The notes under the pieces were generated by a model, which saw nothing but the letters and a program-made list of their open reading frames with translations, did not search any database and was not told the DNA's origin. 64,000 nucleotides of DNA from NCBI GenBank assembly GCA_951406725.2, contig OX597820.1, forward strand, positions 115,568,001 through 115,632,000, in the 5' to 3' direction. Of this stretch, positions 1-54,092 are shown in pieces. Numbering within the stretch: the first letter of the stretch is position 1; each line of letters starts with the position of its first letter. Made by a program: the position numbers and the translations under genes. The DNA comes from Octopus vulgaris (lineage: Eukaryota).

Positions 1-992
1 AATTTATATCATATCCAGAATATTCTGTTAAACCTGTTTTTTTTTTTAAATTATTTCTGTTCATAACTGTTTTGTTTCTTAAAGTTTTTATTTTCGTTTC
101 TCAAATTAATTCATTTACTTAAAAAACTAATATGATTTTCTTGTTAGGTTTTCTTGTTAGTCAAAGAAATCCTCATACATATATTTATTGATGGGTTAAC
201 CTATTTCTAACCAATAGTTAACTTATTAACCAATAGTTAATACATTGATAAGGATCACTCTCACACTGTAACCTATTCTATATTACTTCAATGTTACAGT
301 GAAACCTTATTTTTCTGGTCACATATTTCTGCATGAATTTCTTCATTGTGGTAATCTATGATGTTTATTATTATTATTATTAGTAGTAATTGTTTTAATA
401 TCTTTACAGTCTACGTAAAGTCCATTTATAAGTATACAGGTTTAAAATTATTCACATAAGTGAAAAGAAAAAAATAAGAAAATCTCCCATCCACCCTTTT
501 CCCCTGCCTACTATTCCTGGGTGGGTTGTTGGGAGTGGAGTCCTCAGGTACTTCTACCATGGGACCTCTTAGAAACAATCCTCGTTACACTTTCTAGCTG
601 GATTCCCAAGCATGATCACCTGAGACTAGGGATGTCATCCAACCATTCATGCTCTGCATATTTTGTCAGCATAAGTAAAGCCTACTTTGTCAATATGAAA
701 TACATTGAACTCTCAGAAATACTTGATATTTATGGTGGGTATCTTTCTGTTTTATCTTCTATTTGCTTCAGTCATTCGTCTGTGACCATGCTGGGGCACC
801 ACACTGAAGAATTTTAGTCAAATGAATTCAATCCAGTACTTATATCTTTCATTAAAGCCTGGTACTTATCCTATCAACCTCTTGCCGAAACACTGACTTA
901 CAGGGATGTAAACACACCAACACTGGTTGTCAAGCAGTAGTGGCAGACAATTGCAGATACAAAGACACACACACACACACATATATACACAT

Positions 993-1155
993 ATATATAA
1001 TTGTTAAAGAGGACAACAAACTTTAAGGCAAGGCAAACATCTCAAGTCATATTCAACATTATTACAGGAAGAAATTCTCTGTGTAATAATAATATATATG
1101 ACTTGAGATGTTTGCCTCGCCTTAATGTCTGTTGTCCTCTTTAGAAATTATATAT
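993..1155. repeat. Long inverted repeat (fold-back element) nested in the microsatellite of a SINE
   Basis: aaagaggacaacaaactttaaggcaaggcaaacatctcaagtcatat ... atatgacttgagatgtttgcctcgccttaatgtctgttgtcctcttt. Confidence 0.8.
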
Positions 1156-1530
1156 CCACTATATCGGAAATCTGCAATGGCTCCATAACTACTGTCTCAG
1201 CTATAACTTTGAAGCCCTTGTAATCCATTACAGCACTTATCTAGTATACCTAGTCTTTTATATCACTTGTGAGATAAAACCCCATACTTTGTGTGTGTAT
1301 ATATATATATGATGGGGGTTCTTTCAGTTTCTGTCTACCAAATCCACTCACAAGGCTTTGGTCAGCTTGAGGCTATAGTAGAAGACACTTGCTCAAGGTG
1401 CCATGCAATGGAACTGAACCCAAAACCATGTGGTTGGGAAGCAAACTTCTTACCACACAACCACACTATCTATATATCATAAATGTAGCATATCGCCTTA
1501 ATGGTTCATATCCATTTAGAAGTAGTAGAT

Positions 1531-2046
1531 TGTGATATTTGTAGTGACGGCATTTTCCAGTGTGCGCACACGCAACGTCATTCTTCAGTGTGCGTGTGCA
1601 GAATGTCATTCTTCAGTGTGCGTGTGCGGGGCTGGAACCTTTCTGGAAAGGCCTAAGGAAGTTCCCTCATGCACATGCGCAAGAGACTGGGGAAGAAAAT
1701 TCTATCGCGTTCCTTGTTTAGCGTCGTCGATTTGAGACATGGCTATTGAAGCGAAAGGACGTGTTAAACGTGTGATCAGCCATTCTCCTGTCCCAGACAC
1801 TTAGAATTTGACCTGCTCTGTTGCTGCTGAATTTGTTGTAAGAATCTTACAAATGTTAAAATTCAGCTTTGCTATATCGAACCAAGTGGATACCAATATA
1901 CCAACGTACTTCTTTTGTAAATAAGAAATAAAGAGAATATATATTTTTAAGGTTGCGTTCTTGTTCCTGACTGGTAGATTCTGGAAATTGAAGCAAGGAA
2001 ATTGGTTGCGCCTGAACAGTGTAAAGAATTAACCAGTTCCATTACA
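1531..2046 (+). mobile_element. Probable solo LTR
   Basis: tgtgat...attaca termini (TG..CA), internal short tandem repeats, CpG-rich, AATAAA near 1928; no clear TSD. Confidence 0.5.
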
Positions 2047-2161
2047 TATTCATTAAAGAATCAGTTAGACAAAATGCCTTGCAGCATTGGTTCTGAGTTC
2101 AAATCTCATTGAGGTCAACTTTATTTTTCATCCTTCTGAGGTCAATAAAATAAATTCCCAG

Positions 2162-2307
2162 TACTAGCATAGCTAGACGGTGTACCACCTGGGGCAATCC
2201 TTCCATTTGCCATCCCTGGACCTCAGAAAACACACATATTGCCTACAGCAGACCCAAAAGTGCTGCCCAGGCAGACCACCCCAACTGCCCCCTTAGTTAC
2301 ACTAGTG
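2162..2307. mobile_element. hAT-type MITE (family 1)
   Basis: TIRs tactagcatagcta / tagttacactagtg; 8-bp TSD attcccag at 2154 and 2308. Confidence 0.85.
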
Positions 2308-2764
2308 ATTCCCAGTCCACAGTAGTGGAATGGTGATGAAATTGTGAAAGTGTCAGGAAAAATAGCTTGCAGTATTGGTTCTAGTTCTTTATGTTCACAG
2401 TTCAAATCCCACTGAAATCAGATTTATCTTTCATTGTTCTGGGGTCAGTGAAATACAGAAAACTAGAATGGTTGCAGCAATTTTGTTGGACAAAACACCT
2501 TTTGATTTTGACTTCAACTCAGAAGGTGCAGGTGTGGCTGTGTGGTAAGAAGCTTCTTTCCCAACCACATGGTTCCAGGTTCACTCCCACCATGTAGCAC
2601 CTTGGGTAAGTGATTTCTACTATGGCTTCTGGCTGACCAAAGCCTTGTGAGTGGATTTGGTAGCTTGTCAAGTGTGTGTGTGTGTGTGTGTTTGTATCTG
2701 TGTTTGTTTCCCATCACTGCTTGACAACTGGTGTTGGTGTGTTTATGTCCCTGTAACTTAGAGG

Positions 2765-3425
2765 CAGTGGTGACTCATGTATAGGCACTGCAGAACTGCA
2801 GCACGCCCTATTTCCACTCAATATTATCGATAACATTTAATATAATGAGTCCTTTTTTTTCCTTTAATTCTTTCTTTATACTTGTACATTATATAATCCT
2901 TAAGCTTAATGTTAGTAGCCATCCCCTAGTTTATGAAAAAATGCAAAAATCCTTGTATAGAACTGTGCACTCCACAGTTCCAGCAATGTTGTGTTTGGCT
3001 GTTGTGCGTATGCTTACATGTCTGAGATAGGAAGCTTCATGCTAGGGAGGGAGAGCACTGCATGAACAACAGTGCCAACTGGTGTTCCGGTGAAAGGTAC
3101 TGTTTCTTTTTGACTCTGTCTGTGTTGTGCTTAAAAACATGTTTATATTCTTGAATGTGATAAAGTGTTTTTGGATAAAATACCTTTTGCTGTCAGGATT
3201 TAAAAAATAGGACACATTTCCCCATCTTATTTTGTGATTTAGGGGAGATTTTTTGAAAAACAAGGGGGAATTCGCGGCAGTATTCAGCGACTAAAACGCA
3301 AACTGATCAAGTTTATTTATAAATTTTCTTTTTATATATTTGTTTCCTTTTACACAATATTAAAACGACTGCTAAAAATTTTCTGAAGTAGCACCCCCAG
3401 TAATTTTATATACGAGCTGCCACTT
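2765..3425. mobile_element. Non-autonomous hAT transposon inserted in a SINE
   Basis: TIR cagtggtgactc / gagctgccactt; perfect 8-bp TSD cttagagg (2757-2764, 3426-3433); the SINE resumes in register. Confidence 0.85.
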
Positions 3426-4036
3426 CTTAGAGGTTCAGCAAGAGAGAACTGATAAAATAAATACCAGGCTTAAAATATGAAAATAAGTACACAAAAGTGG
3501 TGCCCCAGTATGGCCTCAGTCTAACAACTAAAATAAGCAAAAGGTAAAAATGAAAAAGGTAGGTTGTATTGCTTATTGCTTTACTCTTGGACAACATCAG
3601 TGGCATAAAGAGGAGGAGGAGGAGAGTTGGTGCATGGGCAACTGTTGGCCTTCCACAAAACACCTTACTGTGACCAGTGCCTTAGAGAGGAACTTTTCAG
3701 ATGTAGGTACATATTTATCAATAACCTCCAAGTGTAGATATCGTATATTTTGGGTATGAGATCAGTTTAGATCAGTTTGAATATCTAAATGATTTATATT
3801 GTGCCTGCTATAAAGCTTGTTACACCTATTTTGCTATGGTACCCTCCTTTCCACATGAGAAATCTAACACAAGGTTAATTTTTAAAGAAGAAAGATGTAT
3901 ATCATGTACCCATGTATATTACTGGTAGTATTTTATCATCACCAAAGGGGATGAAGTGTTTAAAAAACCTGGCAGGTCAAAACTACCTTTTTCATGTAAG
4001 AAATGAAGATTAAAAAACTATTACCCTCTAGAGCTA

Positions 4037-5708: not shown

Positions 5709-5863
5709 ATGTTACAAATGAAAATAACTTTAATAAGCTGTAATTATAATACCGAATTCAGTTCTTAGTAACCTTTCTGCTTTAATTTATTTACATCAAG
5801 CATAATAGTTTTTATAATTCAATTTGAATTCTCTTCAAATATCTTCTTCCATCTATATTAGAA

Positions 5864-21560: not shown

Positions 21561-22071
21561 CCTAAATTATTTGGTATAAATCAAATTGAGTATACTTATT
21601 TTTTAGTATGTGAAGTGTTAGAGGTATTTTCTCAATTTATCCAGTACAACCCTTAAACAAGTAAATAGTATACTCCTAAACAATAGTTCCACTTATTTCG
21701 GTTAGTGATTTATTCGCGAATATACCAACACTAGCACCACTGAGGGTAATATTCTCCAGGAATGCACAAAAGCCCTTTTGGAGGCTACTTTATTTGAATT
21801 CTTACTATCAGGTAACTAATTTCATGTTATTACATAAGTGACTTCATTATTTGGGTATTCATAACTTATTGGAAATTCCTAGAAACAAGATCCTGTGTAA
21901 AACAGTTCGGTATTCTTTGTAAATGCACAAAAACCGTTTTAAAGACTACATATTTTGTATTGTTGTAATTGGATTAGCAAACCAACTATGAGAATGGAAC
22001 CAAAGGATAATCTCCACTCTCCCGGGAATTACCAGGTACATCAGCTAGTATGCAAATATGTATTTTGTAAT

Positions 22072-22862
22072 ACAGTTATATATTTAAGAGATGAGGAATT
22101 ATTTACATTATTTACATTTGACAGATATTTGTCCTCATCTTGTTTGTTGTTAACACAATGTTTTGGCTGATATGCCCTCCAGCCTTCATCAGGTGTCTTG
22201 GGGAAATTTCGAACCTGGGTCCTCATTCCTAAGGTATTTTTCAATATTATTATTATTATCATTATTCAGGTCACTGCTTGGAATCAAACTCGGAATCTTG
22301 GGGTTAGTAGCTCACGCTCTTAACCATAGGCAATTATGGAGTGAATTTTAGGGATAATAAATCTGATATTCTCCTATCCTTCCTTAATACTGGTTCCCAT
22401 ATGCTATTCATATCTGCACTCACTCTGCTTAGGAGGTTGTTGTGTCCTAGCATATGTGCTGCTTCTTTTAGTTTTCGTATTTTCCAGTGGTGTTCTCTGT
22501 CTATTATTTTAACTTCATCCCACAGGGGGAGGTGTCCATTTTTCCATATATGATCAGCTATACCTGATTTATCAATAACTCCTCGTGTCACAGTCTTGCG
22601 ATGTTCATCTACCCTTATTTTACCCTTATTTTATAAGCCCTAAAATTCACTCCATAATTGCCCATGGGCATATGGCATATTTGTTAAGAGTGCGGGCTAC
22701 TAACCCCAAGATTCTGAGTTCGATTCCAAGCAGTAACAACAACAACAGCAGGTTCAAAATTTCCCCAAGACATCTGATGAAGGTTGGAGGGTATATCAGC
22801 TGAAATGTTAACAAACAAACAAGATGAGGACTAATATCCGTCAAATGTAAACAATGTAAATA
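22072..22862. mobile_element. Penelope-like retroelement, 5'-truncated, with inverted terminal arms (GIY-YIG C-terminus + tRNA-like segment + degenerate hammerheads)
   Basis: Minus strand reads IRVDEHRKTVTRGVIDKSGIADHIWKNGH...WDEVKIIDREHHWKIRKLKEAAHM, typical of the PLE GIY-YIG C-terminal half. Arms ~22072-22360 (-) and ~22630-22862 (+) are reverse complements; probable TSD tg(c/t)aaatatgtattt at 22051 and 22863. Confidence 0.85.
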
Positions 22863-31100: not shown

Positions 31101-33257
31101 TGCTTTTTATGTGCCACCAGCATAGGAGCCAGTGGGGGTGGGGGGACTGGCATCGACCATGTTCAGATGGTGCTTATCACGTGCCACCAGCACAGGTGCC
31201 AGTCAGGCAGCACTGGCATCAGCCACCTTTATAATAATCCTTTTCTCTCATTTTATTCTCTACATCAAACAGTGTATATATTCAGTTTTCTATTAACTGC
31301 ATTCAAAATTCAGATTATTAATTTTCTATTCTACATTGCTTTTTATTAACCATTGAAATAAGTACTACTTCAATATTTTGGTTATTGTTTTGTGAGCGCA
31401 ACAGAAAAGTGAGTCTGCGTTGGAGATTTCTCAAAGAAACACTAGATGTGTGACCAGGCATGGTTGTGTGGTAAGAAGTATGCTTCCCAACCATATGGCT
31501 CCAGGTTCAGTCCTAGTATGTGGTGCCTTAGGCTGACCAAAGCCTTGTGAGTGAATTTTAATGGTAACTGTAAGAAACCAATTGTGTATATATGTGTGTG
31601 TGTGTATATATATCTGTATTGTCCCTCACCATCGCTTGACAACTGGTGTTGGTGTGTTTACATCCCTTGTAATTTGAGGGTGCAGCAAAAGAATAACTGC
31701 CGGGCTTAAAACAATGGAAAAATAAGTCCTGGGTTCAATTCATTCGACTAAAAATTCTTCCAAGCAATGCCCCAGCATGGCCGTAGTCTAATGACTGAAA
31801 CAAGTAAAAGATAAAAGTTGTGGGTGTGTGTGTGTGTTTTGCTTAGGTTTGTTGTTGATAAATGGACACAGTTTGCTCTGCTTACTCTGTCCAGTGGTGT
31901 CACTAACCTTATCTGTGAATATAAATCCGTTAGGGTTTTACTCTGCAATTTGTGGTTGACCATTAAGCAAGATAATGGAGCCAGTTTGATTGTCTATAGT
32001 TTGACTTTCTTTTCATGTTTTGGTTTGTGTGATGGAAGTTGCTTCTGTCCATTATTTTTCCAGGTTATTAAACTGGAGAACAAAGATATGAAGTGCATTT
32101 GATGCCTCACTCAAAATCTTAAAAGTCAATTGTTAAACAGAAATTTGGTTTTAGGAAGGGCATCCAGTTGTAGAAACCATGCCAAAACAGAAATAGGAAC
32201 TTGATGCGGTTCTTGTCAGCACGGAAAATGGATGTTAAATGATGAGAGGTGAGGTTCCAGAAGACTACAACTCTTGGCTGAAAAAATTAAGGAAAATATT
32301 TAGTATTGAATCTAATGTATGTGCAATGCAGTAGGGATGATGGGGGGGGGGGGGAGAAAAGATAGGGTATATAAGTGGATATAGATGGGGTAAGCCAATA
32401 TGTAACAAATTTAAAAGAGCAGAGGCCATTGTAGTCATAGCAGACAGATAAAAGGAAGAACAGTGTTGCATTTGGGTGTGAGGTTGTGTTGATGAGGGAA
32501 TAATGAGTTGCCAATCAAACAGGCAGCATGCTTCTTCTTTTTTTTTTCTCCAATGCAGTCCAAATTGTGTTGTTGTGATCGATGTTTCATCTTTGTGTGT
32601 AGCATGTTAGTGTAGAGCAATATTTATGCTTTATGCCTAAAGGAAATCAATATTTTGCTTTGTTTCTATAAGTTTATTGAGAAGTACTTTAACCCTTTGG
32701 CATTCAGATTTCGCTGTTAAGTATCAGGCCTATATATTCACATGGATTTTGAATTAATTTTTGGTTTTTTTATATATTGGATTATGTTAGTGTTTTATTC
32801 TTACCTTTCAAAAAGACAACTCTGAGACATTTGAAGATACTTTTTAATTTATAAACTTTACAGAATAATTTGATTTTAGGTAGAATTTCTTTTCCTGCTG
32901 TGACTAAAATGGAAATTTTTATTCCCCATTCCCTTCCCATATACACAAGGTATTTTTCAATGTTGAATGTTATTATAATTAATGTTATTATTGATATCGA
33001 ACTTGGAATCTTGGGGCTAGTAGCCCATGCTCTTAACCACTATGCTATATGCCCGTGGACAATTACGGAGTGAATTTTAGGGCTTATAAATCTAATATTT
33101 TCCCATCCTTCCTTAATACCGGTTCCCATATGCTATTCATATCTGCACTCGGTCTGCTTAGGAAGTTGTTGTGTCCTAGCATATGTGCTGCTTCTTTTAG
33201 TTTTCATATTTTCCAGTGGTGTTCTCTATTATTTTAACCACTATGCCATATGCCCGT

Positions 33258-33331
33258 GGGCATATGGTGTAGTGGTTAAGACCGCGGGCTACTAACCCCA
33301 AGATTCCGAGTTCGATTCCAGGCAATGACCT
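33258..33331 (+). other. tRNA-derived segment (Pol III A and B boxes) inside the Penelope-like terminal region; not a functional tRNA
   Basis: gggcatatggtgtagtggttaagaccgcgggctactaaccccaagattccgagttcgattccaggcaatgacct: ~74 nt, A box tggtgtagtgg, loop ct-ACT-aa, B box gagttcgattcc; anticodon and T stems imperfect. Confidence 0.75.
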
Positions 33332-33398
33332 GAATAATAATAATGATAACATCGAAAAATACCTTAGGAATGAGAACCCAGGTTCAAAATTTCCCTAA

Positions 33399-33444
33399 GA
33401 CACCTGATGAAGGCTGGAGGGTATATCAGCCGAAATGTTGTGTT
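33399..33444 (+). ncRNA. Minimal type-I hammerhead ribozyme with one CpG-type change (ACGU to AUGU)
   Basis: gacac CTGATGA a ggctg...cagcc GAAA tg TT gtgtt; perfect 5-bp stem II. Confidence 0.7.
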
Positions 33445-34094
33445 AACAACAAACAAGATGAGGACAAATGTAAATAATGTGCTTAATTCCTCATCTCTTA
33501 AATATAGAACTGTAAAATCTAGTCCATTTTTATAAATTTCCTATTTGTTTCCAGCTATATTTTGTATTGATTTGATTTGAAATCCTAATCATATTCATAA
33601 CTGAACTTTGTGAATATTTAATCTAGGATTGCTAAAAAGGATAACTCATCTCTTTGAAACCTTTCCCAGTGAAAAGATAACAGAAAATTAATTTGTGACA
33701 ATTTCCTAAATTATCTCTTTAAAGGAAATCCGTTATTAATTAGCCTTGAATATTGTTATTTTGACAAGCTAGGTATGACTCATTCCATATTACTGCTCTA
33801 CTTGTAGGGGGTGCACTGAGGCTGCAGAATTTAATGTTTTGCTTGCATCAATGGTTATCTTTTAGACTGTTGCTATCAGTTTCTACATGAATAAAATTCC
33901 ATTCTGCCCTCCTAATTACTCATCATAATTAGATATATGCTCTTCTGCCATGCTTTCCATATCTACAAGGCATTTACATTCATCAGAAGCAATATGTTAA
34001 GCATTTCAAAACTATTTGCTTTCACTGGTTTTTATTTAAAATAAACTTCAAAGTTCAAACACACAAAATCCAAATTCTAATATTGTGCTGTGGC

Positions 34095-51062: not shown

Positions 51063-52538
51063 TCTTGGATTCTGGTTTATAAAAGCAATATAAACATTCA
51101 AGAGGAGCTGACTGCTGGGTTTTGTACTCTACGTCTATGTAGACATGTATTCTATTGCATACTGCCAATGTGGTTTACAATATACATCGTGTACAGAAAT
51201 GCAAACACTGTATTTGTTTTAGCTATTCTTATTTACAGTATCCTTTACCTGTTTAAATGCAAGATACTCCATGTAGTCGTTCGACCTGCTAGAAATAACA
51301 GCCAAATCTCCAGATCACACTGGTGACCTCACCAGTGGTGGGGCCATGAAAAACACACCCAGTACACCTCTAAGATGGATGGGATTAGGAAGGGCATCCA
51401 GGTGTAGAAACCATGCCAAACTTGACATTGGTGCCTGACACAGCTCTGCAATTTGTTAGTTCGTGTTGAACTGTTCAGCCCGTGCCTGCATGGAAAAGGA
51501 GACATCAAATGATGATGATGATGATATCTTGTGTATAAGCCATTTCCCCCTGCCCTGTTTCTTCAACAGGAAATATTCTAGAAGAAGTTTTAGGGAATTC
51601 AAGCATTTATTGAAATACATAGTTGATGGTATGATAAGACTATGATAAAAATCAGTTTTTAAATAAACTACCAGTTGTAATGATAACAATGAGAATGTTA
51701 GAGTGAATAGTTTTACCATATGAAATTAAGCAAAGCTGGATAATACTGGTTTCCAGTTTGCCTTTTTGCAACTAATCTCAAGGTAAATCAAGTAAACGGC
51801 TTCTCAGGATAAACATTTACCTTCTGGAGACTTCATCAGCTCTGGTTTAGCCCGAATTGAGTAGACCTATTATGATTAAAGGTATTCCACCCTTAATCAT
51901 TCCATGTTATTTTTGACAACCATCTAGAACTATATTGTCTGCTGTAAGCTTCTTTTATTAAGACAGTAAATTGTAGTCTGGTGTTCATTTGGTTGCTATT
52001 TCTAACAAGTCAAGTGACCCATGTAGATGTTCCCTGGCTGGTTCATTCATGGGACTTTTTTTTTCTGCACAGGTGTGGCTGTGTGGTAAGAAACTTGCTT
52101 CCCAACCACATGATTCCAGGTTCAGTCCCACTGCATGGCACCTTGGGCAAGTGTCTTCTATAGCCTTGGGTTGACCAAAACCTTGTGAGTGGATTTAGTG
52201 GACGGAAACCCAAAGAAGCCCATTGTGTGTATGTGTGTGTGTGTGTGTGTGTGTATATATTTCTGTGTTTGTCCCCTGACCATCGCTTGAGAACAGTTGT
52301 TTGTGTGTTTATGTCCCCATAACCTAGTGGTTTGGCAAAAAAGACCGATAGAATAAATACTAAGCTTACAAAGAATGTCCTGTGGTCGATTTGTTCGACT
52401 TGGGGTGGTGCTCCAGCATGGCCGCTGTCAAATGAGTGAAACAAGAGATAAAACAATATAAATATGGTATCAAAGATAATCTCTGCATCATTCTTATTTT
52501 AAAAAATTCCTACAAAACTTTGATAAAAATCAGTTTTT

Positions 52539-52952
52539 CAGTTTTATATTTAAGAGATGAGGAATTATGTACATTATTTACATTCGATGGATATTTGTCC
52601 TCATCTTGTTTGTTGTTAACGTTTCGACTTATATACCCTCCAGCCTTCATCGGGTGTCTTGGGGAAATTTTGAACCTGGGTCCTCATTCCCAAGGCATTT
52701 TCGATATTATTATTATTATTATTATTATTCAGGTAGTTAGTAGCCCATGCTCTTAACCACTACCCCAAGATTCCAAGTTCAATTCCAAGCAGTGACATGA
52801 ATAATGATAATAATAATAACATTGAAAAATACCTTAGGAATGAGAACCCAGGTTCGAAATTTCCCCAAGACACCTGATGAAGGCTGGAGGGTATATCAGC
52901 TGAAACGTTGTGTTAACAACAAACAAGATGAGGACAAATATCTGTCAAATGT
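52539..52952. mobile_element. Third copy of the same Penelope-like family (two inverted terminal arms, no ORF)
   Basis: Arms ~52539-52760 (-) and ~52762-52952 (+); 12-bp TSD aaatcagttttt at 52527-52538 and 52953-52964. Confidence 0.85.
52869..52914 (+). ncRNA. Minimal type-I hammerhead ribozyme, apparently intact
   Basis: gacac CTGATGA a ggctg gagggtatat cagct GAAA cg TT gtgtt: stem I gacac/gtgtt, core CUGAUGA, stem II ggctg/cagct, GAAA, palindromic ACGU in place of helix III, GUU cleavage triplet. Confidence 0.75.
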
Positions 52953-54092
52953 AAATCAGTTTTTAAATGAACTTTCACTAATGATAATAATAACAATGAA
53001 GAGACTTTCAAGTGAACAGTTTTACCATAAGCACAGGCCTTGCTGTGTGGTTAAGAAGCTTGCTTTGCAACCATATGGTTTCTGGTACAGTCCCACTGTG
53101 GAGCTCTTTGGGTGAGTGTCTTCTGCTATAGCCCTGGGTCAACCTGTACCTTGTGAGTGAACTTGCTCAAAGGAAATTGTGTAGAAACTTGCTATATGTG
53201 TGTGCTTGGCCCTATACTATTCCCCCACCACTGTTTGGCAACCAGTGTTGGATTGTTTATACTCCTGTGACTTAGTGGTTCAGCAAAAGATACAGATAGA
53301 ATAAGTATCATCATTTAATGTGCATTGTCCATGCTGGCATGGGCTGAATGGTTTGACTGGAGCTGGCATGCTGGAAGCCTGCACCAGACTCCAGTCTGTT
53401 ATGGCTGGATGCCCTTCCTAACGCCAACCACTCCAAGAGTATAATGAGTGCTTTTACGTGCCACCGGCAGACTTTAAAAAAAAGTACCATGGGTGATTTG
53501 TTCAGCTAAAATCTTTCAAGGCCTTGCTGCAGCATGGCCACAGTCCAATAACTGAAACAAGTAAAAGATAAAAGATAAAAGATATCTAACCACTCCAAAG
53601 TTATACACCACTGTTGTCATTCAAATTAGTTTGAGAAACTATAAAAGCTAGAAAGCTTTTGTGAATGATTGCTGTAAAAAGAAAGAAAAGAATCTGGTTT
53701 GAAAATGTTAATTACACAGTCCAGCTCTTAAAATTTAAAAGTGCGTAACCCTGCTGAATACAAGTTATATTATGTTAAGTATTCTGCTGTTTATACTGAA
53801 ACAAAAGAAATATTTTCTCATACGTGGCAGGACATAAGTAAACAGTTCATTTCATTTTGTTCTACATTTATATCTACTGAATTCATTGTGTCATAAATGC
53901 TTTTTAATAAAAATTCGTTCTTGTTATCTTAAGAGCACTTGTATTCTGGATAAACAGAACTTTTATATTTTGTTTTGTCTGGGAGATCTACTGACAAATT
54001 ACTACACACACAACTTCTTTTTAATCTTTTTGTTCTTTGTTTTGTCTTTTCCTTTTTAAACTCTTTCTAACACCAAACTCTTGAAGATTGTA

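What the first reader, a model, noticed from the sequence alone, without database searches (positions are those of the whole stretch)
32948..33513. Penelope-like family whose terminal region fuses a tRNA-derived Pol III promoter to a minimal hammerhead ribozyme
Seen: three loci (22072-22862, 32948-33513, 52539-52952) share one module, complete with the GIY-YIG tail at the first two. It runs GIY-YIG C-terminus (...WEPVLRKD...LKFTP*), a few nt, a ~74-nt tRNA-like segment with A and B boxes (33258-33331), (AAT)n, then ~70 nt after the tRNA a hammerhead gacac-CUGAUGA-a-ggcug..cagcc-GAAA-(c/u)g-UU-guguu, then a shared terminus. Established: PLE pseudo-LTRs carry minimal hammerheads that lack helix III, have a palindromic tetranucleotide and cleave as dimers. 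Inference: the captured tRNA head could drive a ~190-nt Pol III RNA with a ribozyme-defined 3' end, making a SINE/retrozyme-like unit mobilised by the PLE, or it could be the promoter of the next unit in tandem PLE insertions. I do not know this combination from described PLEs but cannot verify novelty.
Basis: partly seen in the sequence, partly recalled or inferred. Interest (0 to 1): 0.85.

Follow-up and report, generated by a model that had tools for sequence, protein, structure and literature searches.

The report
Penelope retroelement with tRNA-derived promoter head
These repeats are end fragments of a high-copy Penelope-type retrotransposon whose terminal repeat starts with a tRNA-derived segment; most copies that keep this segment begin right at it, so it is likely an RNA polymerase III promoter and the element would make its own SINE-like copies.

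Summary
The parts are real. The three loci are head-to-head fragments of a ~2.6-kb Penelope/Poseidon-type element (RT + GIY-YIG), roughly 37,000 loci genome-wide. The tRNA-like head, (AAT)n, minimal hammerhead and terminus form its pseudo-LTR. The head follows the GIY-YIG stop in 28 of 30 protein-selected loci, runs into the ORF in long copies, and is shared by a sister subfamily. The hammerhead lies inside the ORF's N-terminal reading frame.

Copies end at two downstream sites about 35 nt apart, the known PLE 'tail'.

New: copy number jumps 4.2-fold at the head (896 to 3,735 exact matches). 45 of 60 A-box copies start there, the clean ones within 6 nt of tRNA +1. The sense strand lacks T4 terminators over 2.6 kb. 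Best reading: Pol III starts the RNA at the head (about 55%). Main rival: an unusually stable hairpin at the same spot stops RT (about 25%).

PLE hammerheads and tRNA-SINE-plus-hammerhead (schistosome SM-alpha) are known. I found no paper with a tRNA/Pol III head on a coding PLE; Repbase and Dfam were not checked.

The parts
33063..33238 (-). 5'-truncated C-terminal tail of the GIY-YIG endonuclease with its stop codon (left arm of locus 2)
   Evidence: the same tail at locus 1 is 68% identical to RT-bearing protein P0001
32947..33054 (-). second, 3'-truncated tRNA-like head and degenerate (AAT)n after the stop; no hammerhead
33231..33257 (.). fold-back palindrome at the junction of the two arms, centred on the hairpin at the head's 5' boundary
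33258..33331 (+). tRNA-derived head (best match tRNA-Arg), 5' part of the pseudo-LTR; likely type-2 Pol III promoter
33265..33275 (+). A box
   Evidence: consensus recalled
33310..33319 (+). B box
   Evidence: consensus recalled
33333..33352 (+). (AAT)n linker, length variable among copies
33370..33372 (+). likely ORF start codon; the frame runs through the hammerhead into the RT ORF in long copies (frame broken in this copy)
   Evidence: relative P0032 has the same N-terminal peptide
33399..33444 (+). minimal type I hammerhead: stem I 33399-33403/33440-33444, core 33404-33410, stem II 33412-33431, GAAA 33432-33435, predicted cut after 33439
33445..33514 (+). ORF-start segment holding the two recurrent 3' ends, E1 (~33469-33480) and E2 (33514): the PLE 'tail'
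22071..22615 (-). locus 1, left arm: GIY-YIG tail (22615-22334), partly deleted head, hammerhead, end E2
22630..22862 (+). locus 1, right (inverted) arm: GIY-YIG end, head 22666-22737, hammerhead core at 22774, end E1
52534..52767 (-). locus 3, left arm: head fragment, (AAT)n, hammerhead, end E2
52762..52956 (+). locus 3, right arm: 3' part of the head, hammerhead core at 52874, end E1

Best explanation
The module is the pseudo-LTR of a high-copy Penelope/Poseidon-type retroelement whose 5' end is a captured tRNA(Arg)-derived segment that likely works as an internal RNA polymerase III promoter, so that most inserted copies that reach this segment would be reverse transcripts of RNAs starting just before it.

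Steps. (1) Shown: the head is fixed between the GIY-YIG stop and the ORF start in two subfamilies. (2) Shown: copies stop sharply at 0 to -6 relative to tRNA +1. (3) Inferred: this edge is the transcription start, G at -6, 13 nt before the A box; a YNMG-type tetraloop hairpin would cap the RNA's 5' end. (4) Inferred: Pol III reads through the hammerhead into the ORF, which lacks T4 terminators. (5) Inferred from the Anolis element: the RT/EN protein binds the ORF-start region, nicks AT-rich DNA and starts cDNA internally at E1 and E2, one per strand; this gives head-to-head arms with different 3' ends (pattern shown). (6) Inferred: cDNA that runs off the RNA 5' end folds back on the hairpin or joins the other arm. 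The hammerhead is likely uncut in the templates that are inserted. The protein most likely comes from a capped read-through RNA of tandem or host-promoted copies; this is untested.
For: Head fixed in the element: 28 of 30 GIY-selected loci carry it after the stop. L099 and L110 run head-HHR-ORF; L100 and L102 run GIY tail-head-HHR-ORF. A sister subfamily has the same architecture with an in-frame indel after the ATG.

Sharp 5' edge. Exact 20-base counts genome-wide: 844 at -172, 896 at -28 to -9, 3,735 at +2 to +23, 5,148 at +30 to +49. Of 60 A-box copies 45 lack the GIY tail; the 30 without a fold-back remnant all start at 0 to -6, and 10 abut unrelated flank. In 90 HHR-anchored copies, 28 of the 38 that reach +5 end between -30 and +5. 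In the unselected inverted arms, 23 of the 26 that reach +20 end between -18 and +20, with no excess across the hammerhead stem.

No T4 run on the sense strand over 2,624 columns, against 30 A4 runs. A synonymous-codon shuffle expects 2.7 (P = 0.033). 41 of 43 other PLE ORFs and all 4 other RT families of this genome have T4 runs. 0 of 26 hammerheads in 80 other PLE loci have an A+B box upstream, and 21 of 26 have a T4 within 150 nt upstream.

3' ends: 44 of 60 head-to-head pairs use E1 on one arm and E2 on the other, matching the PAc mechanism (PMC11167929).
Against: The boundary hairpin is among the most stable 0.2% of 30-mers along the element (-9.6 kcal/mol), and 15 of 45 copies show fold-back there, so an RT stop could make the same edge. 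The closest outside relative (L421, 48% identity) also has no T4 in 1,990 nt of ORF, yet has a T-rich pLTR and no head, so the T4 signal is weak. RNA reads of a related organism show both strands about equally, no discrete start, and only a ~1.5-fold depth step at the head; contig depth steps only 1.0-1.2-fold. The A+B test has low sensitivity (2 of 6 decayed family copies). Uncapped Pol III RNA translates poorly (recalled), and Kojima argues that autonomous partners must use Pol II (PMC10886601).
Confidence: 0.55

Rival explanations
1. The edge is an RT stop, not a promoter. Long read-through (Pol II) RNA carries a strong hairpin at the head's 5' boundary; cDNA stalls or snaps back there, and the tRNA piece is an old passive insertion in the pLTR.
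For: The boundary 30-mer is in the top 0.2% for stability and 15 of 45 edge copies are fold-back palindromes. Ends at +6 to +20 are also enriched. No discrete RNA start is seen.
Against: The hammerhead stem causes no excess of 5' ends (0.0024 per nt against 0.035 at the head). The 30 non-fold-back copies never pass -6, although the stem continues beyond it. A/B boxes are kept in both subfamilies.
Confidence: 0.25
2. The edge is an RNA 5' end made otherwise: a Pol II start that coincides with the head, or processing of a read-through RNA at the tRNA-like part (RNase P-like).
For: Characterised PLEs use a pLTR promoter with a 5'-UTR intron (PMC8557442 passages). A capped RNA would explain translation from the ATG about 113 nt downstream.
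Against: The head does not fold as a cloverleaf. Many ends lie upstream of +1 (-1 to -6), which RNase P would remove. The A-box spacing fits Pol III (recalled).
Confidence: 0.12
3. One reading: a separate ~190-nt SINE- or retrozyme-like unit, started by Pol III, ended by the hammerhead and mobilised by the PLE.
For: All 8 loci in 600 kb of unselected DNA are module-only. SM-alpha is a precedent.
Against: 0 of 58 3' ends lie within 7 nt of the cut. Copies extend into ORF-start sequence. The arrangement is head-to-head, not tandem monomers. In PAc the RT binding and initiation sites lie downstream of the cut.
Confidence: 0.05

Closest known systems
Poseidon element of Anolis carolinensis (PAc; PMC11167929, parts 1-2 of 4 of the main text read)
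   Same: RT + C-terminal GIY-YIG; pLTR overlapping the ORF start; hammerhead within the ORF 5' end; two RT initiation sites giving a 30-40-bp tail; AT-rich targets. An 836-aa Anolis protein (P0142, inferred to be PAc-like) is 37% identical over 800 aa to the family relative P0016.
   Different: No tRNA head is described in the parts read. In PAc the start codon lies in the hammerhead; here the likely ATG is 34 nt upstream of the core.
Minimal hammerheads of metazoan PLEs (PMC4209133, parts 1-2 of 4 read)
   Same: No helix III, palindromic 15.1-16.1, a bulged base before stem II, dispersed single copies and opposite-strand pairs 100-700 bp apart.
   Different: No tRNA or Pol III head is reported in the parts read; one supplement file has no 'octopus' or 'tRNA' and another could not be searched.
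Schistosoma SM-alpha / Sj-alpha (passages of PMC6765202, PMC2770079, PMC6155905; the primary papers were not read)
   Same: A tRNA-derived SINE head and Pol III transcription joined to a type I hammerhead; tens of thousands of copies.
   Different: SM-alpha is non-coding and often tandem, with a fast full-size hammerhead and a tRNA-Gln-like head. Here the head is the 5' UTR of an RT-EN ORF and copies do not end at the cut.
TRIMp3 elements: Cassandra, Helenus, Ajax (passages of PMC10886601)
   Same: A small-RNA-derived Pol III promoter inside the terminal repeat of a retroelement.
   Different: These are non-autonomous LTR elements of 0.3-1.3 kb; here the host is a coding PLE.
Animal non-LTR retrozymes as PLE derivatives (bioRxiv 10.64898/2026.07.22.740005; part 1 of 5 and a term search)
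   Same: Short hammerhead-bearing units related to PLE pLTRs.
   Different: Those are tandem monomers bounded by hammerheads; the text has 0 occurrences of tRNA, Pol III or octopus.

Membership tests
Penelope-like element (Penelope/Poseidon type) | RT domain in a single ORF | tested here: met
   P0001 hits PF00078; most genomic copies align to P0016 at about 55-75% over its length, L078 from aa 1 to 803
Penelope-like element (Penelope/Poseidon type) | C-terminal GIY-YIG endonuclease | tested here: met
   The region aligns with the EN motifs of the Anolis protein P0142 through P0016 and is read in L033. Pfam alone did not name the 93-aa tail.
Penelope-like element (Penelope/Poseidon type) | pseudo-LTR formed by partial tandem, overlapping the ORF start; inverted truncated arms | tested here: met
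Penelope-like element (Penelope/Poseidon type) | 30-40-bp optional tail | tested here: met
   E1 and E2 are about 35 nt apart (loose ends at 1735/6 and 1769/70 of L027); 44 of 60 pairs use one of each
Penelope-like element (Penelope/Poseidon type) | minimal type I hammerhead in the pLTR (sequence) | tested here: met
Penelope-like element (Penelope/Poseidon type) | hammerhead self-cleavage as dimer or with protein | not testable with these tools
   needs an in vitro assay
Penelope-like element (Penelope/Poseidon type) | placement in the Penelope/Poseidon clade by RT tree | not tested
   only pairwise identity and domain order were used
tRNA-derived SINE | tRNA-derived head with A and B boxes at the 5' end | tested here: met
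tRNA-derived SINE | transcription by Pol III | not testable with these tools
   indirect only: 5' edge and lack of T4 runs; the RNA-seq lay shows no discrete start
tRNA-derived SINE | non-coding family separate from its autonomous partner | tested here: not met
   the head is continuous with the ORF in L099, L100, L102, L110; most copies are nonetheless module-only
tRNA-derived SINE | simple-repeat or poly(A) 3' tail with target-site duplication | tested here: inconclusive
   ends are E1/E2, not poly(A); no clear TSD by eye at the 3 window loci; not tested systematically
non-LTR retrozyme / SM-alpha type | units delimited by hammerhead cleavage, in head-to-tail tandem | tested here: not met
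   0 of 58 3' ends at the cut; head-to-head arms dominate
non-LTR retrozyme / SM-alpha type | circular RNA intermediate | not testable with these tools
   the 15 joints shown include no cut-to-cut circle; 125 more were not shown

The most novel reading that the evidence does not exclude
An autonomous Penelope element transcribed end to end by RNA polymerase III from a captured tRNA-Arg promoter: a terminator-free 2.6-kb coding retroelement that is at once the source of RT and of its own SINE-like progeny, which outnumber ORF-bearing copies several-fold. It would show a SINE class arising inside a PLE terminal repeat.
Probability: 0.3. Interest if true: 0.8.

Novelty: new variant of a known kind. 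Interest (0 to 1): 0.58.

Why it matters
How PLEs are transcribed, and what their hammerheads do, is open: promoters are mapped for only two elements in the passages read (PMC8557442). This family offers a sharp, countable 5' edge and two 3' edges in thousands of copies. It gives genomic support for the two-site RT initiation model and argues against hammerhead-defined templates. If the head is a Pol III promoter, a coding retroelement uses the SINE-type promoter thought to be limited to short non-coding elements. That would suggest a route from PLE pLTRs to SM-alpha-like hammerhead SINEs. The frequent head-to-head arms would also form double-stranded RNA when read through (inference).

Tried and rejected
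ARAGORN and Rfam found neither tRNA nor hammerhead; the models do not cover degenerate heads or minimal hammerheads well, so this is no refutation. A functional tRNA gene is rejected (no cloverleaf). Origin of the head from an abundant SINE of this genome: a head profile over 600 kb of unselected DNA, 60 control loci and the window hit only family copies and the sister subfamily at E < 0.03; other SINE heads scored E >= 0.05. No RNA holder listed by the run search. The close relatives P0016 and P0026 could not be placed on DNA (0 loci; viral contigs 0), so whether they carry the head is open. Earlier findings of this scan: none in 3 look-ups. Literature searches with no paper holding all terms: Penelope + non-autonomous + SINE + tRNA head; Penelope + tRNA-derived + internal promoter + polymerase III; Penelope + tRNA-like + retrotransposon + cephalopod. 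Listings showed no such element by title or abstract start. The Craig et al. supplement lists only Naiad PLEs for octopus in the 2 of 4 places shown and holds neither of two family motifs. Luense et al. 2017 is not held. Ohshima and Okada 1994 (octopus SINEs) was seen only as a reference, so identity with one of those SINEs is not excluded. The supplement of the O. vulgaris repeat paper was listed but not read; bioRxiv supplements are closed. The GIY, start and fold columns used a wrong reference and were replaced. The T4 argument was downgraded after L421.

Full report
WHAT IS IN THE WINDOW. The window lies at G000:C7:115568001-115632000 in a 2.8-Gb genome. The three loci are related at 82-95%, and each is a pair of arms pointing outwards. 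At 32948-33513 the GIY-YIG tail is on the minus strand and runs into a cut-off head; the + strand head-hammerhead-terminus is the other arm. The colinear order endonuclease tail, head, (AAT)n, hammerhead, terminus is read at 22615 to 22071.

THE FAMILY IS A PLE. The 93-aa tail is 68% identical to P0001, which carries an RT domain. Its 806-aa cluster mate P0016 aligns along genomic copies, L078 from aa 1 to 803, and is 37% identical over 800 aa to an Anolis protein inferred to be Poseidon-like. The unit is about 2.6 kb. Copies are a median 94.3% identical to each column's commonest letter (96 segments). In 60 unselected 10-kb stretches there are 8 loci, all module-only, or about 37,000 genome-wide (my arithmetic; Poisson range about 16,000-74,000).

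THE MODULE IS THE PSEUDO-LTR. Of 30 loci picked by the GIY-YIG protein, 29 have the module downstream and 28 include the head. Among 30 loci picked by the ORF start, L099 and L110 read head-hammerhead-ORF and L100 and L102 read GIY tail-head-hammerhead-ORF. The 'terminus' is the start of the ORF. An ATG about 113 nt after tRNA +1 opens a frame through the hammerhead into the RT protein in several natural copies, and the outside relative P0032 has the same N-terminal peptide. A sister subfamily (30 loci) has the same head and hammerhead and an in-frame insertion after the ATG. PAc likewise has its hammerhead in the ORF 5' end (PMC11167929).

HEAD AND HAMMERHEAD. The head aligns to genomic tRNAs above shuffles, and tRNA-Arg is best among the 10 genes at hand in 17 of 17 heads. 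The set lacks Asn, Ser, His and others, so the parent is provisional. It is not a tRNA gene. In 65 copies not picked by the core pattern, the hammerhead core is near-invariant except at N7 (U 43, A 19) and at CpG sites. This fits the published minimal type (PMC4209133). Cleavage was not tested.

3' ENDS ARE NOT SET BY THE RIBOZYME. In 58 of 60 A-box-anchored copies with a readable end, 0 end within 7 nt of the cut, 18 end at E1 and 17 at E2; 12 break off in the head or the AAT run and 11 end elsewhere. Of 60 head-to-head pairs, 44 use E1 on one arm and E2 on the other. RNA reads of one coded organism and contigs of two others show the same two ends about 35 nt apart. This is the PLE tail (PMC8557442), explained in PAc by two internal RT starts, with hammerhead cleavage dispensable.

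5' ENDS PILE UP AT THE HEAD. Exact-match counts are 844 and 896 in the endonuclease tail, then 3,735 and 5,148 in the head. That is 4.2-fold across about 10 nt, against 1.06-fold over the 145 nt before. Of 60 A-box copies, 15 carry the GIY tail and 45 do not. These 60 were taken from the first 100 listed on C1, skipping 9 already held; L374/L375 and L388/L392 look duplicated. Fifteen of the 45 have a fold-back remnant; the other 30 start at 0 to -6 and none further. In 90 hammerhead-anchored copies (90 of the first 100 listed; L196/L197 are one insertion and L208/L209 look duplicated), 28 of 38 reaching +5 end between -30 and +5, and 10 go beyond -30. In 57 unselected inverted arms, 23 of 26 reaching +20 end between -18 and +20. 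G at -6 is 13 nt before the A box, a normal Pol III spacing (recalled).

TERMINATORS. The sense strand has no T4 run over 2,624 columns, against 30 A4 runs; single decayed copies have 0-3. A synonymous shuffle expects 2.7 (P = 0.033) and a redraw of third positions 3.8 (P about 0.01); four other RT families of the genome have 1.7-5.3 per kb. Among 43 long ORFs from 80 outside PLE loci, 41 have T4 runs, and observed matches expected overall (432 against 394). Against this, the closest of them, L421, has none in 1,990 nt and has no head. No A+B box pair lies upstream of 26 hammerheads in those loci, but the test found only 2 of 6 decayed family copies.

THE RIVAL. The boundary forms a hairpin, GCC-CACG-GGC (loop beginning TA in subfamily 2), in the top 0.2% of 30-mers of the element. 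It could stop RT on a longer RNA. It could equally be the 5'-terminal cap of an RNA starting at -6. The hammerhead stem causes no such stops, and clean copies never pass -6, which favours a true RNA end. RNA-seq does not decide. Reads lie on both strands about equally, no start or end stands out, and depth rises only about 1.5-fold at the head, as expected if most reads come from copies inside host transcripts.

WHAT IS KNOWN. Minimal hammerheads in pLTRs, inverted arms and tails are standard PLE features. A tRNA-derived, Pol III-transcribed SINE with a hammerhead is SM-alpha/Sj-alpha. Pol III promoters inside terminal repeats are known for non-autonomous LTR elements, whose autonomous partners are argued to need Pol II. 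Searches showed no coding PLE with a tRNA head. Repbase, Dfam, Luense 2017, Ohshima and Okada 1994 and unread supplements may hold it.

VERDICT. A real feature and a new variant of a known kind: a Penelope-type element with a tRNA-derived head that marks the 5' end of most copies reaching it and is probably a Pol III promoter. The ribozyme-ended mini-RNA is not the mobile unit. Interest 0.58.

Noticed in passing
L130:1190-1400 (minus); L331-L360: Sister PLE subfamily with the same tRNA head and hammerhead, a different linker instead of (AAT)n, and a 9-codon in-frame insertion after the ATG; 539 candidates in the genome search.
   Followed up: partly
window 52074-52220 and 53035-53200: Another abundant repeat with a tRNA-like start, SINE-like, unrelated to the PLE head except weakly at the boxes; many copies in the flanks of fetched loci.
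   Followed up: no
L027:900-1790, runs X21/X22 against X18/X19: More A>G and T>C sites in RNA reads (18-21 and 25-29) than in contigs (9 and 16). Could be A-to-I editing of hairpins formed by the inverted arms, but the organisms differ and C>T and G>A rise too.
   Followed up: no
hammerhead position N7 (window 33408): The only strongly polymorphic core position in the family (U 43, A 19 of 65): neutral for the ribozyme and a conservative Asp/Glu change in the ORF.
   Followed up: partly
protein P0023, N-terminus: Its first residues look like the antisense translation of a hammerhead, so this relative likely also has an inverted pLTR arm before the ORF.
   Followed up: no
L216:138-2854: Cluster of 7 tRNA-Cys-like genes within 3 kb, two with variant anticodons.
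   Followed up: no
L421:3501-5490: Outside PLE, 48% identical, with no T4 run in its ORF but a T-rich pLTR and a hammerhead at 5823.
   Followed up: partly
L440:7675-8442: Six tRNA-Cys-like calls at low ARAGORN threshold with 135-bp spacing, a tandem repeat near a PLE in a metagenome contig (locus id read from the order of the output).
   Followed up: no
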